Origin: an uncultured virus (IMG/VR IMGVR_UViG_3300048028_000412)
Taxonomy: Duplodnaviria; Heunggongvirae; Uroviricota; Caudoviricetes
IMG/VR virus record: IMGVR_UViG_3300048028_000412
Reading direction: 5' to 3' (one strand)
DNA length: 20,000 nt
Notes under the pieces: generated by a model
Databases searched by the model: none
Seen by the model: the letters and a program-made list of their open reading frames with translations, nothing else
Told to the model about the DNA's origin: nothing
Position numbers and translations under genes: made by a program
Shown here: piece after piece, positions 12,225-18,877 of the stretch
Layout: each line of letters begins with the position of its first letter
Position numbering within the stretch: position 1 is the stretch's first letter

Positions 12225-12929
12225 ATGGCACTACCCAAATTAAATGATGTACCAAAGTATGAAATCACTATTCCATCAACAGACAAAAAGGTATATTTTA
12301 GACCGTTTTTAGTTAAAGAACAAAAGGTTCTGCTAATAGCATTAGAGTCTCAAGATGAAAAACAGATATTACAGGCAGTAGTAGATACTATTAAGGCCTG
12401 TATATATGAAGATATTGAAATCGATAAGTTAGCAATATTTGATCTTGAATATATTTTTCTACAAATCAGGGGAAAAAGTGTAGGTGAGAGCGCTGATCTT
12501 ATAATGAAGTGCAGAGAATGCGACCACGAAAATAAAGTTAAAGTAGATCTAGAAGATATAAAAATTAAAAAGGGACCTGACAAAAAATTTGTTCTTAATG
12601 ACCAGTTTACTATAGAAATGAAATATCCATCCTATGAGATTATTTTAAGAGAAGATATGAATACAGATTCGGCTGTAGAAAATATTTACAACACTGTTTT
12701 GTTATGCATGAGTTGTCTCTATACGGAAGATGATATTATTAGGTTTGAGGAATATACTGATGAAGATAAAAAGGAATTTATGGAAAGTCTTACGTCTGAA
12801 CAATTTGATAAAATTGTAACATTTGTTAGTAATCTTCCTGCAATAACATATGATTTAGAGTATGACTGTGAATCGTGCGAACATAGTAATAAAGAAATAT
12901 TAAGAGGAATACAAGATTTTTTATCCTAG
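12225..12929 (+). CDS. gp26: Baseplate hub subunit / assembly chaperone gp26
   Basis: MALPKL..PKYE..IPST...FRPFLVKEQKVLLIALES...FDLEYIFLQIRGKSVGE; two CxxC motifs. Confidence 0.9.
   Translation: MALPKLNDVPKYEITIPSTDKKVYFRPFLVKEQKVLLIALESQDEKQILQAVVDTIKACIYEDIEIDKLAIFDLEYIFLQIRGKSVGESADLIMKCRECDHENKVKVDLEDIKIKKGPDKKFVLNDQFTIEMKYPSYEIILREDMNTDSAVENIYNTVLLCMSCLYTEDDIIRFEEYTDEDKKEFMESLTSEQFDKIVTFVSNLPAITYDLEYDCESCEHSNKEILRGIQDFLS
12917..12923 (+). other. Putative -1 ribosomal frameshift slippery heptamer T TTT TTA
   Basis: X XXY YYZ pattern in the correct phase (GAT TTT TTA TCC TAG) at the end of gp26. Confidence 0.7.
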
Positions 12930-13114
12930 GCCTCTCTCATGATAGTTTAATAAACTATTTCAGGGTAAACTATCAGTTAATACAAAATCATAAGTATTCA
13001 TTAACTGACGTAGACCAAATGATACCGTGGGAGAGGGAGATTTATGTTAGTATGCTTATTGATGATATTAAAAAAATGAATGAAGAAAACCAAAGACAAA
13101 ATATGCAGAGGTAA
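12917..13114 (+). CDS. gp51: gp51-like baseplate hub assembly domain with no own start codon; likely expressed as a gp26-gp51 -1 frameshift fusion
   Basis: The -1 frame relative to gp26 reads FFILGLSHDSLINYFRVNYQLIQNHKYSLTDVDQMIPWEREIYVSMLIDDIKKMNEENQRQNMQR*. This is the short gp51 family of marine T4-like phages (HKYSL...MIPWEREIY). Missed by the ORF track. Confidence 0.85.
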   Translation, partial: FFILGLSHDSLINYFRVNYQLIQNHKYSLTDVDQMIPWEREIYVSMLIDDIKKMNEENQRQNMQR

Positions 13115-13116
13115 CT

Positions 13117-15030
13117 ATGGCAAATTTAAAAGCAGTAGTAGAACAATTAAAAGAGCAAAACGGTGTTCTCACTAGTGTAAATGAGAACATTTCTGCTATG
13201 CTTAAAGGCCAGATTCAAGAATCTTTGGATAACCAAAGAAAAGCCGGCGATGAAGAAGAAGAAAAAAGAGAAGCTCGCAAAAGTAGGATTAAAGATAGGG
13301 ATAAGCCAACTCCAAAATCGTTTAGCGGAGGGTTTGTTGCAGGAGCTGGATTAGGAGGCTTATTAGACGGGTTTAAAAATGCGCTGGGCGGTACCGCCGG
13401 CGGCTTGGGCATAGGGGCTTTACTGGGCATGGGAGCAGGGAGATTGTTTATGCCTGCTTTAGGCGCTTTACTCGGAGTTAAATATCTAGATAAATGGGTT
13501 GATCCCATTATTGATAAGATCACTGGTGATGATGCAACTTGGTCAATGTTTGGCAAGCAAATAGATGCATCTAAAATTGTATCAGGATTTGCTGGAGGTC
13601 TGGCTCTTATTTTCGGCCCTAAGTTAATTAGTACAGCTGTTAGTAGTTTACTGTCAGGAGGGGGAAGAGGTCCTAACAGTAATGGCCCAGGATTAAGAAA
13701 AACATTTTTAAGTAGATTAGGAATCGGAGGCATAGCTATAGCTGTAGCAGATTCTGTAGGAGACTTTGCTAAAACTTTAACCGGGTCAAAAGATTTTGCT
13801 GACACCGTATCTAATGCGATGGCGGCTACAGGGGTAGGGTTTATGGTCGGAGGGCCAGTTGGTGCTCTTGTGGCCGCCGGAGCTTATATAGCTTACGAGT
13901 CAGTGTCAGCTATCGCCGCTTGGATGAAAGGCAAAGGCGATAGAATGAAGCAAAAGCAACTTGAAGAATTAGATAAGTTGCAATTAGATGTCGACAGGCT
14001 TATTCAAGAAGGTAAAGATGAAGCTGCAGGCGAAGTAGCAAAGTCCATGATTGCAAGTCAACGCTCTTTCATGTCTGGAATATTTCAAGGCCAACTAGCA
14101 GCAGATGAAGCATCGTATTTTGCTGATAAATCTAGAACAGCATTTGAAGGCGCGAAGGCTGCAGGAGATACTTCTGCGATGGCCGCCGCGACTGAACTAG
14201 AAGCAGATGTATTGGGTAGAAGCGATGTTGGTTATGATGAAGGATTAGATCAATTTCGTAGATTAACTAATCAGCTTATTGAATCAGGAGCAGATGCTAC
14301 AGCTGCAGCAACTCAAATTGCTGTTTCGGCTTCATCTATAGGAGGAGCCTTTACTGATGCCGCGGAGGCAGCTAATGATTTAGCTGCTAAAAATATTATA
14401 TTAGAAGGTGAAAGAACTCATCGTATACAACAGGCAGGAAGAAGAATTGGCAGATCTAGATTTGGAGATGCTGAAGCCAGAGTAGGAACCACTCAAGAAG
14501 TCTTTTTAAGGGATTTATTAAGAAGAGCTAGTACTGAAGCAAATGCAGAACGGTTAGCTGGCATAGTATCTCCTATGGATAGTCCGTTTGGAGCTGCAGT
14601 AACGCTATCAGATGCTGCGGCTATGTTTGCAGCTGAATATAAAAAGATATCTAATGAACAAGCCCTAGAAAATTATTACAAAAATAATCCAGAAGCTGCT
14701 GAAAAGTCTGTTCTTAATTTATTCTCAGGCATTTTAAATAATATGGGATTAAGAGCGTATAAAAATAGCCAAGATAGTTCACCAAATCTTATGCCGGCAA
14801 CGGACAGTAGAGAAACTAATTTTGATATACTTGACTCATTTGGTGCTCTAGCTGCAGCCGGTAAGTCTGCGCCAATTGTTGTAAATGAAGGTGACATTAT
14901 TACAAATAACAATAATGCTGGAACTAGTATGCCAAAACCTGCTCCTAAGTCTGCAGTTGATGCTGTTGCAACGACTAAGCAAATGATCAGAGGTTTTGCC
15001 GGTGCTCATAATAAGTGGATGATGGATTAG
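13117..15030 (+). CDS. Probable tape measure protein (gp29-like)
   Basis: 637 aa, Ala/Gly-rich and helical-looking, with hydrophobic glycine-zipper segments (GVGFMVGGPVGALVAAG). C-terminal APIVVN...NNNN tail; follows gp26/gp51. Confidence 0.65.
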   Translation: MANLKAVVEQLKEQNGVLTSVNENISAMLKGQIQESLDNQRKAGDEEEEKREARKSRIKDRDKPTPKSFSGGFVAGAGLGGLLDGFKNALGGTAGGLGIGALLGMGAGRLFMPALGALLGVKYLDKWVDPIIDKITGDDATWSMFGKQIDASKIVSGFAGGLALIFGPKLISTAVSSLLSGGGRGPNSNGPGLRKTFLSRLGIGGIAIAVADSVGDFAKTLTGSKDFADTVSNAMAATGVGFMVGGPVGALVAAGAYIAYESVSAIAAWMKGKGDRMKQKQLEELDKLQLDVDRLIQEGKDEAAGEVAKSMIASQRSFMSGIFQGQLAADEASYFADKSRTAFEGAKAAGDTSAMAAATELEADVLGRSDVGYDEGLDQFRRLTNQLIESGADATAAATQIAVSASSIGGAFTDAAEAANDLAAKNIILEGERTHRIQQAGRRIGRSRFGDAEARVGTTQEVFLRDLLRRASTEANAERLAGIVSPMDSPFGAAVTLSDAAAMFAAEYKKISNEQALENYYKNNPEAAEKSVLNLFSGILNNMGLRAYKNSQDSSPNLMPATDSRETNFDILDSFGALAAAGKSAPIVVNEGDIITNNNNAGTSMPKPAPKSAVDAVATTKQMIRGFAGAHNKWMMD

Positions 15031-17129: not shown

Positions 17130-17390
17130 CTATGTGAAAGAGATGACATTTGCAACGCGAAAAGAACGAAAACCGCCCTTTAATGTATCAAATGCTACGA
17201 TTGTTTCTTCATTAATATCACGAACCTTTTTTTGCGTAATAGGTTCATTCTTCTTAGCGTCAGGCAGAACATCTTCAATTAGCGTGCACATCATATCACG
17301 CTCTTCACCATTTACTTTTTTAAAAATGACACGGCAGACACGTTTCTGCAATTCATTAATCATATATTCGCGAGAGCTTGAGTCAATCAT
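17130..17390 (-). CDS. SH3-like beta-barrel protein (WYL_2/DUF2693-like)
   Basis: V.FKKVNGEERDMMCTL...AFDTLKGGFRSFRVANV pattern. Confidence 0.7.
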   Translation of the reverse strand: MIDSSSREYMINELQKRVCRVIFKKVNGEERDMMCTLIEDVLPDAKKNEPITQKKVRDINEETIVAFDTLKGGFRSFRVANVISFT

Positions 17391-17924: not shown

Positions 17925-18130
17925 TAAGCTGCCTCCTTATAATGTTGATCGAATGTGCCATAGATACGTAACTTAACATTACGAATATGGTTACATGGTT
18001 TACGTGGCGCTTTTTTACAAGAACAACTGAAACCCTCAGGATGCATGGTGACAGTACCTTTGGCATAAATCCATTCAGTACCGACCATCCAATGGTCCTG
18101 AGTATCAATGAGACTAGTACTAAAAATCAA
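17924..18130 (-). CDS. Small SWIM-type zinc-finger protein
   Basis: CSC-x7-CNH motif; GGAGG SD upstream; TTG start overlapping the upstream stop. Confidence 0.65.
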   Translation of the reverse strand: MIFSTSLIDTQDHWMVGTEWIYAKGTVTMHPEGFSCSCKKAPRKPCNHIRNVKLRIYGTFDQHYKEAA

Positions 18131-18333
18131 TCTGTGTACCTCCTATCAACTGCAGATGCATCCCATACATACTTGTGCATTCTAGGATCACCTACTATAA
18201 CAACATCACTATCACCAACTTCGCTATAGACTCTAGCGTCCATATGTTTGTGATAGTAGGCAGGACCACCGAAGACCCTGCGGGCTGCCTCATAACGAGC
18301 CTCACTCATACCAACATAGTGTACAGTTCTCAT
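18127..18333 (-). CDS. Hypothetical protein
   Basis: Strong AAGGAG SD 6 nt before the ATG. Confidence 0.7.
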   Translation of the reverse strand: MRTVHYVGMSEARYEAARRVFGGPAYYHKHMDARVYSEVGDSDVVIVGDPRMHKYVWDASAVDRRYTD

Positions 18334-18338
18334 AATAA

Positions 18339-18527
18339 ACTCCTTTCCTCATACGCCCCTAGTATATCCAATCACTTCCGCACGGCCTTATTGACGTTGC
18401 CGCTCTAGTTTGATTGAAACTAATATCTCCACGTTTTCACGACACTGATATTTCACAGGCGAATTATTCTCGCGAGATTGTGTTTTCAGGTGGCCTGCCC
18501 TCTGCACGGACGTATGAGGAAAAGAGT
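18339..18527 (-). ncRNA. Putative structured non-coding or cis-regulatory RNA of unknown family
   Basis: Fills a 200-nt intergenic gap in an otherwise packed operon. It has a 20-bp closing stem (two G-U pairs only on the minus strand), several internal hairpins including a GAAA tetraloop, and raised GC content. Confidence 0.7.
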
Positions 18528-18534
18528 CTAAGAC

Positions 18535-18792
18535 TCAATCCCAATCGTTGTCGTAACGAGTTGTTTCAAACATTGTTTCGCCATAGTATTCTTTGGCGTA
18601 TTTAGATGCATCAGTCCAGTGATACATGTTAGACTCTTTAGGAATGTCAAGATCTTTTTTCTTACGAGAAACAGGCTTGGCGCGAGAGATAACTGATGCA
18701 GACTGTTTACGGATCTTAGACATTTTTTTCTTACGCTCAGCGATTTCTTTGATGAGAGCAAGACGATCAGATTGAGTAGTTGCAGTTTTCAT
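18535..18792 (-). CDS. Hypothetical protein (basic N-terminus, aromatic/acidic C-terminus)
   Basis: GGAG SD before the ATG at 18792 (MKTATT); directly downstream of promoter copy 2. Confidence 0.72.
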   Translation of the reverse strand: MKTATTQSDRLALIKEIAERKKKMSKIRKQSASVISRAKPVSRKKKDLDIPKESNMYHWTDASKYAKEYYGETMFETTRYDNDWD

Positions 18793-18817
18793 AGTATTCT
18801 CCATAATTAATAAAACC

Positions 18818-18877
18818 ATTCTACACTATTAAAAACGGTTTGTACACCTTTTTGTTTTGTTTAAAATCAATAACTTA
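18818..18877 (-). promoter_or_regulatory. Early/middle-type promoter, copy 2
   Basis: TAAGTTATTGATTT-17 nt-TGTACA-17 nt-TAGAAT on the minus strand. Confidence 0.75.

What the first reader, a model, noticed from the sequence alone, without database searches (positions are those of the whole stretch)
18339..18527. ~190-nt highly structured intergenic RNA of unknown class
Seen on the minus strand: 5' arm ACTCTTTTCCTCATACGTCC (18527-18508) pairs fully with 3' arm GGGCGTATGAGGAAAGGAGT (18358-18339). Both deviations from a perfect inverted repeat are G-U pairs on this strand only, which points to selection on RNA rather than DNA. The enclosed ~150 nt holds GCAGGC/GCCTGT (or alternatively GCGAG/TTCGC), AATATC/GATATT with an inner CGT-GAAA-ACG GNRA hairpin, TAGTTT-CAATC-AAACTA and GCGGC/GCCGT. 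The CAATC loop is complementary to downstream GATTG (possible pseudoknot). It is the only large non-coding gap in the window and lies ~290 nt downstream of an early-type promoter. Inference: a phage ncRNA, ribozyme or riboswitch-like element, possibly excised by RNase III at the long stem. I cannot match it to a family I know.
Basis: partly seen in the sequence, partly recalled or inferred. Interest (0 to 1): 0.8.

Follow-up and report, generated by a model that had tools for sequence, protein, structure and literature searches.

The report
Modular self-pairing ocean phage RNA
This stretch is a conserved, folded non-coding element shared by many uncultured ocean phages and absent from the RNA family catalogue; it is likely made as RNA, cut out by a host enzyme and paired with a second copy of itself, and it carries interchangeable side modules whose job is still only predicted.

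Summary
The element is real. 152 distinct relatives (77-219 nt) came from marine viral and metagenome contigs; none matches Rfam. The closing helix (23 bp in the window) covaries strongly on the minus strand. The constant core is the closing stem plus a hairpin whose loop holds a self-complementary tetramer in 152 of 152 members, switching among GGCC, GAUC, CCGG, GUAC and GCGC: the published signature of an intermolecular kissing loop. A distant sister group mostly lacks it. Two other arms are optional and combine freely; one resembles the tRNA-elbow-binding double T-loop of RNase P. The stem's conservation pattern fits an RNase III site. Where a gene follows, the 3' arm is its Shine-Dalgarno sequence (28 of 30); elsewhere it precedes tRNAs. 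Best reading: an RNase III-excised, homodimerising phage RNA chassis displaying swappable modules, which also gates the next gene. Transcription, cleavage, dimerisation and targets are untested. This scan found the family before on other DNA (e1-6059400), whose note gave the dimer lead.

The parts
18508..18530 (-). P1 5' arm (element positions -2 to 20); predicted RNase III cut between 18518 and 18517
   Evidence: pairing, covariation; cut site inferred
18336..18358 (-). P1 3' arm (positions 170-192); predicted RNase III cut between 18347 and 18346
   Evidence: cut site inferred
18480..18507 (-). P2 hairpin with conserved purine-rich internal loop; part of the constant core
   Evidence: helices 2 and 3 covary; present in members lacking other arms
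18492..18495 (-). Self-complementary tetramer GGCC in the 7-nt P2 loop; predicted intermolecular kissing site
   Evidence: criterion from PMC12286853
18425..18478 (-). Optional arm (P-var) with inner hairpin at 18458-18445 and two GAA-type loop strands; resembles the RNase P J11/12-P12-J12/11 double T-loop region
   Evidence: structure; 45 of 152 members; resemblance, inferred
18407..18423 (-). P3 5' strand (P3a, P3b and 2-bp P3c)
18382..18403 (-). P4 hairpin with near-invariant 12-nt loop ('payload A', 119 of 152 members)
18359..18379 (-). P3 3' strand with 3-nt bulge
18340..18346 (-). Shine-Dalgarno sequence of the downstream gene, buried in P1 in the uncut precursor
18524..18536 (-). Small upstream hairpin that competes for the 5' arm; predicted to help release the Shine-Dalgarno sequence after cleavage
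   Evidence: role inferred
18127..18333 (-). Downstream 68-aa gene of unknown family
18535..18819 (-). Upstream small gene of unknown family (longest ORF; real start probably 18792)
   Evidence: start inferred from promoter and SD position
18818..18846 (-). Sigma70-type (early-like) promoter candidate
   Evidence: not tested

Best explanation
This is a member of an uncatalogued family of structured non-coding elements of marine T4-like phages, likely transcribed early, likely cut out by host RNase III at its closing stem, and predicted to form homodimers through a palindromic kissing loop, so that it would act as a two-headed scaffold or decoy displaying interchangeable RNA modules. Steps. Shown: conserved nested fold, invariant self-complementary loop, free combination of optional arms, many unrelated gene contexts. 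Inferred: (1) transcription from the upstream early-type promoter, about 0.9; (2) RNase III cuts after positions 10 and 181, freeing an RNA of about 171 nt, about 0.75; (3) loop-loop homodimer, about 0.75; (4) in members followed by a gene, as here, the cut frees the buried Shine-Dalgarno sequence with help from the upstream hairpin and switches on translation, about 0.55; (5) the dimer binds host translation components, the window's optional arm holding tRNA by the elbow, about 0.25-0.35.
For: Fold: 98.1% of 3367 cells paired, 26 of 56 pairs with double changes, slid controls 40-47%. Kissing loop: 132 of 132 cells self-pair at adjacent columns; 152 of 152 distinct members (148 Watson-Crick, 4 with G-U); chance pattern matches without a closing stem 4 of 15, 1 Watson-Crick; 16 of 18 loop variants against 4.3-5.4 expected; 17 label changes on a loop-masked tree. 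PMC12286853 uses exactly this switching among palindromes as evidence for intermolecular pairing in OLE and GOLLD. Tandem members in one contig use different loops in 3 of 3 cases. RNase III: pairs 6, 7, 8 and 13 are never G-C (0 of 149 each) while pairs 9-12 are G-C in 94, 76, 41 and 127; pairs 0 and -1 are mostly G-U/A-U; this fits the proximal and distal boxes and 22-bp two-fold site of PMC1540722 and PMC3867540. Stand-alone unit: tRNA gene begins 5-9 nt downstream in 11 of 69; directly behind a promoter-like site in L051, L057, L167; manA-like RNA next to it in L059. Gate: GGAG in the arm goes with ATG at +4 to +8 in 28 of 30 against 2 of 38; upstream competing hairpin in 23 of 31 against 4 of 38; SD fully paired in the precursor, residual duplex only about 3 kcal/mol better than the refolded parts. 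Modules: all six combinations of T-loop arm and payload occur.
Against: No transcript, end, strand or level is shown: the 8 runs laid are contigs and may hold DNA. A distant sister group (11 loci, 4 loop variants) keeps the closing stem and P2 internal loop but has a 4-nt palindrome in only 1 variant, so self-pairing is not universal to the scaffold. A 4-bp kiss is weak, and no dimer energy was computed. Members are related and recombine, so counts overstate independent events; the least number of mutational origins is 4. RNase III boxes are degenerate and were defined in E. coli; the host is unknown (best cultured gp32 match 51%); the box register was inferred from text, the figures were not seen. 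The SD and hairpin associations are confounded by kinship. The RNase P likeness is partial and post hoc, and no Rfam model scores it. The interior is deleted in L668/L669, so it is dispensable in at least one lineage.
Confidence: 0.55

Rival explanations
1. It is only a cis-acting leader or riboswitch that controls translation of the next gene by hiding its Shine-Dalgarno sequence.
For: SD lies in the 3' arm and tracks the presence of a start codon; it is fully paired in the precursor.
Against: 38 of 68 members have no SD in the arm; 11 of 69 are followed by a tRNA; the same downstream gene has its own SD outside the stem in L049, L068, L093, L116, L213 and occurs without the RNA directly upstream in 43 of 69 evaluable loci; a 23-bp stem is too stable to switch on ligand binding (inference).
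Confidence: 0.12
2. The P3/P4 arm is a SAM-clan-like aptamer (it carries AUC, AGAG, CGGCAAY, GUGC and GAU in the order recalled for SAM-I), so the RNA binds or uses S-adenosylmethionine.
For: The SAM-I-like register is 99.6% paired in 66 rows. Motif order recalled from memory, not from a call.
Against: Double changes support the other register (126-145 in 4, 127-144 in 2 of 118), the equivalent of the next SAM-I pair is formed in 0 of 118; no P2 between J1/2 and P3 as PMC6890682 describes for the clan; no Rfam SAM hit; the arm is absent in 33 of 152.
Confidence: 0.05
3. It is a ribozyme or self-splicing insertion.
For: Many invariant unpaired bases and a multi-helix junction; patchy presence at one locus; an empty allele exists.
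Against: No Rfam ribozyme or intron match; the shortest members (77-102 nt) keep only P1, P2 and a stub; no joint skipping the element in 8 runs of contigs, which shows little; the empty allele is explained by deletion between two copies of a 4-nt repeat in the arms of its closest relatives (inference).
Confidence: 0.08
4. It is a DNA-level cassette (PeSL- or MITE-like) that drives gene shuffling, and the palindromes are DNA protein sites.
For: Fixed terminal trinucleotides, varied neighbours, tandem copies; PeSLs do this in T4-like phages (PMC4122927 abstract).
Against: Strand-specific G-U pairs throughout; one match per record in 6 of 6 records searched with model R1; the palindrome changes among five sequences, which a DNA-binding protein would not tolerate (inference).
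Confidence: 0.07

Closest known systems
OLE (RF01071) L9.3 and GOLLD (RF02032) L21a symmetric kissing loops; ROOL (RF03087)
   Same: Palindrome-switching loop as an intermolecular bridge; GOLLD and ROOL are phage or prophage RNAs near tRNA islands, function unknown (PMC12286853, passages).
   Different: 77-219 nt rather than 550-800; one kissing loop; swappable arms; RNase III-type closing stem that doubles as SD; no Rfam score.
manA RNA (RF01745)
   Same: Under 200 nt, found in T4-like cyanophage ncRNA clusters (PMC9964418), self-assembles (bioRxiv 10.64898/2026.07.01.735769); a manA-like match sits next to one member.
   Different: No sequence or model match to the element itself.
RNase P RNA J11/12-P12-J12/11 interdigitated T-loops (also T-box stem I, L1 stalk)
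   Same: Optional arm has a GAA-type strand, a CGCC-started stem and a GUGAAA strand in the same order as four RNase P RNAs fetched here; the motif binds the tRNA elbow (PMC4810234, PMC4919913).
   Different: Spacing and pairing differ by a few bases; no catalytic domain; present in 45 of 152 members only.
RNase III-processed phage stems (T7 R1.1-type sites)
   Same: 22-bp two-fold stem with A-U-only proximal box positions and A-U/G-U distal box.
   Different: The stem encloses a conserved multi-arm RNA; the same kind of stem ends wrap an unrelated RNA in these phages.
PeSL cassettes of T4-type phages
   Same: Conserved intergenic unit in variable early regions with changing neighbours.
   Different: Not a promoter-terminator composite; single copy; extensive RNA-type covariation.

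Membership tests
Any Rfam 15 family | Covariance-model score at or near the gathering threshold | tested here: not met
   No match on the element at E<=5 in the window, E<=2 in 10 loci, E<=1 in 16 loci
Self-associating RNAs with symmetric kissing loops (OLE/GOLLD type) | Adjacent loop bases covary among palindromes | tested here: met
   criterion in PMC12286853
Self-associating RNAs with symmetric kissing loops (OLE/GOLLD type) | Oligomer seen in solution or by cryo-EM | not testable with these tools
   needs bench work
GOLLD / ROOL / OLE | Length of several hundred nt and family fold | tested here: not met
   77-219 nt; no model match
SAM clan (SAM-I, I/IV, IV) | P1, short turn, P2, then P3, with pseudoknot or P4 periphery | tested here: not met
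   no P2 at that place; competing register better supported
SAM clan (SAM-I, I/IV, IV) | Binds SAM | not testable with these tools
   needs probing
RNase III substrate | Helix of about 22 bp with A-U at proximal box positions 2-4 and A-U/G-U distal box | tested here: met
   against PMC1540722 and PMC3867540 text; register inferred, figures not seen
RNase III substrate | Ends with 2-nt 3' overhang in vivo or in vitro | tested here: inconclusive
   only assembled contigs were available
Interdigitated double T-loop | Two pentanucleotide T-loops on opposite strands of an internal loop | tested here: inconclusive
   sequence likeness only
Interdigitated double T-loop | Stacks on the tRNA elbow | not testable with these tools
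   needs binding assay or structure
tRNA / tmRNA | ARAGORN or Rfam call | tested here: not met
PeSL | Repeated promoter plus terminator composite | tested here: not met
   single match per record; promoter candidate is 291 nt away

The most novel reading that the evidence does not exclude
A natural plug-and-play RNA platform: phages use one RNase III-released, self-dimerising chassis with strain-specific palindrome 'addresses' to display swappable RNA domains, one of which is a fourth natural tRNA-elbow clamp, so the dimer would hold or shield tRNAs (for example against host tRNA-cutting defences) while its excision times translation of the next early gene.
Probability: 0.2. Interest if true: 0.9.

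Novelty: new variant of a known kind. Interest (0 to 1): 0.72.

Why it matters
Natural RNA oligomers are few and their functions are open questions. This family is small (down to 77 nt), has 152 natural variants, five orthogonal loop codes and arms that come and go, so dimerisation, processing and each module can be tested by simple in vitro work. If the optional arm binds tRNA elbows it answers a stated prediction that viral RNAs use this motif (PMC4919913). It also shows that uncultured marine T4-like phages carry clusters of uncatalogued structured RNAs beside their tRNAs.

Tried and rejected
Rfam scans and ARAGORN: no match on the element. BLASTN against 50,697 cultured phage records: only 27-nt chance hits. 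Pattern scan of GTDB genomes gave 49 matches, 0 of 49 confirmed by model R1, so no cellular member was found; one exact pattern is a weak search. Neighbouring proteins: no PHROG or Pfam family above cut-off for either flank gene, no Atlas hit. RNA libraries: 20 runs listed, 8 laid; contigs cover the element or relatives in several but cannot show transcription, strand or ends; uncovered parts prove nothing. SAM-I register: rejected as above. One search's stem search mostly returned reverse complements of known members and was cut in the output; only its listed sister elements and tandem pairs are used. Literature: 9 completed searches found no description of this family. In the phage structured-RNA screen PMC10690425, four supplementary files (3-6) held no matching motif, but the zip and PDF files that would hold alignments could not be read, so the family may be among its 10,000 candidates. 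PMC10085705 (permuted RNAs; abstract and one section) and PMC3014915 (passages, no RNase III mention) did not bear on it.

Full report
Setting. The window is part of a 76,559-nt T4-like virus record; its single-strand binding protein is at most 51% identical to any cultured phage. The element lies on the minus strand between two small genes of unknown family, 291 nt behind a sigma70-type site. Element position p equals window coordinate 18528 minus p.

Observation. The closing arms pair as described, with two G-U pairs, and extend to 23 contiguous pairs; this is the only such stem in the contig. The minus strand folds far better than shuffles (z -5.3), the plus strand less so (z -2.3), and the interior alone not at all (z -0.5). 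Folding energy therefore supports only the stem; the interior needed relatives.

Relatives. Of 45 loci of the upstream gene, 20 show the element within 300 nt, 3 carry other RNAs and 22 neither (read by eye). Three patterns on different parts of the 3' arm gave 91, 105 and 107 viral loci, largely the same, and 69 distinct complete elements (one contig cut short was dropped). A pattern on the 5' hairpin gave 104 viral loci and 117 metagenome loci from a partial scan. The union is 152 distinct elements of 77-219 nt. None of 49 pattern matches in cellular genomes passed the covariance model.

Structure. On 66 of the 69 (three longest left out) a nested fold with P1, P2, an optional arm, P3 and P4 has 98.1% of cells paired and 26 of 56 pairs with double changes; slid controls give 40-47%. 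I drew this structure from these sequences, so it is favoured over controls for that reason too. It remains possible as a minor alternative fold. The other inner pairings fail likewise.

The constant core. In 105 matches of the 5' pattern, 20 lack the P4 domain and one is cut by a contig end. The shortest members keep the closing stem, P2 and at most a stub of P3. The optional arm and the P3 payload combine freely: arm plus payload A 38, plus B 3, plus none 4; no arm plus A 81, B 7, none or other 19.

Kissing loop. The P2 loop holds a self-complementary tetramer at a fixed place in 152 of 152 members: GGCC 69, GATC 40, CCGG 33, GTAC 5, GCGC 1, and 4 with a G-U pair. The search patterns fix only the loop's length. 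Chance matches without a closing stem score 4 of 15. The label changes 17 times on a loop-masked tree, at least 4 by mutation, the rest possibly by recombination. Adjacent bases cannot pair within one chain; PMC12286853 (passages) takes such switching as evidence for intermolecular pairs, confirmed there by cryo-EM. Against: a distant sister group of 11 loci keeps the scaffold, but only 1 of its 4 loop variants holds a 4-nt palindrome.

Processing. Pairs 6, 7, 8 and 13 of the stem never become G-C while pairs 9-12 do so freely; the two pairs outside position 1 are mostly G-U and A-U. PMC1540722 (passages) gives A-U at proximal box positions 2-4 and UA/UG in the distal box; PMC3867540 (passages) gives a 22-bp two-fold site and 2-nt 3' overhangs, and warns of degeneracy, as does PMC5371410 (passages). 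Centring the site between pairs 9 and 10 fits these and predicts cuts after positions 10 and 181. This is inference.

Context. A tRNA starts 5-9 nt downstream in 11 of 69; some members follow a promoter-like site directly or sit beside other structured elements. GGAG in the 3' arm goes with a start codon 4-8 nt on in 28 of 30, against 2 of 38; a competing upstream hairpin is present in 23 of 31 such members, in several unrelated upstream contexts, against 4 of 38. In the window the SD is fully paired before cleavage; afterwards the leftover duplex (-12.2) is only about 3 kcal/mol better than the refolded pieces (-7.2 and -2.2). The downstream gene has the RNA directly upstream in 26 of 69 evaluable loci (6 too short), so gating is a local add-on.

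Payloads. The window's optional arm has the order and several short words of the RNase P region that forms the double T-loop, seen in four of five RNase P RNAs fetched (one was not printed); PMC4810234 and PMC4919913 (passages) describe the motif. The likeness is partial. Payload A carries words recalled from SAM-I, but double changes favour the other register and the clan's architecture (PMC6890682, passages) is absent.

Expression. RNA libraries hold the region or relatives, but all eight runs laid are contigs. Transcription is not shown.

Novelty. No Rfam model matches. Nine literature searches found no description; PMC12990946 (passages), bioRxiv 10.64898/2026.07.01.735769 (first part), PMC9964418 (passages), PMC4122927 (abstract) and bioRxiv 10.64898/2026.10.21.760802 (passages) cover related RNAs, not this one. 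Unreadable supplements of PMC10690425 may list it. It works like the self-associating phage RNAs of tRNA clusters but belongs to none of their families.

Verdict. Real and uncatalogued; new variant of a known kind; interest 0.72. Fold, palindrome and modularity are shown; transcription, cleavage, dimerisation and targets are inferred.

Noticed in passing
L017 about 1770-1930; also upstream or downstream of members in L055, L057, L078, L119, L241, L700, L704: A second recurring structured-looking element of about 150 nt ending in a GC-rich hairpin, with no Rfam match at E<=2 in L017.
   Followed up: partly
L017, L086, L564, L662, L670: A third element of 108-120 nt with the same kind of closing-stem ends but no P2; suggests a shared processing stem for unrelated RNAs.
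   Followed up: partly
L059, L191, L240 just upstream of the element: A fourth conserved element ending in a G-rich run, not matched by Rfam in L059.
   Followed up: no
L059:1575-1753: manA-like RNA (50.5 bits, below the 55.2 cut-off) 10 nt downstream of a member, followed by tRNAs.
   Followed up: no
L668/L669 about 572-594: Empty allele: upstream hairpin and outer stem with SD kept, interior gone, apparently by deletion between short repeats in the arms.
   Followed up: partly
L681, L700, L704, L705, L713: Distant 86-94-nt sister with a pyrimidine-rich single strand that could pair with Shine-Dalgarno sequences, and mostly non-palindromic loop.
   Followed up: partly
L061/L602, L666, L679, L684; L407:420-528: Other short sisters with CCGG loops and different payloads, some in tandem with a full member.
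   Followed up: partly
L540, L541, L549, L554, L513, L441: Payload B, a longer arm replacing P4 in 10 of 152 members; no Rfam match in L540, L541, L513.
   Followed up: partly
L408, L410, L447, L511: Truncated P3 capped by a second palindromic stretch; possible second contact site.
   Followed up: no
L585: A tRNA gene whose acceptor stem is extended by similar stem ends.
   Followed up: no
window 17130-17390 (-): 86-aa WYL_2 (Sm-like SH3 barrel) protein 950 nt downstream in the same direction; a possible nucleic-acid binder, link to the RNA untested.
   Followed up: no
window 18846-18818 and 16862-16834 (-): Two promoter candidates with identical TGTACA and TAGAAT hexamers.
   Followed up: no
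window 12929-13117 (+): Apparent gap holds a 31-aa ORF whose start may lie further upstream; recalled likeness to a T4-like baseplate hub protein, not tested.
   Followed up: no
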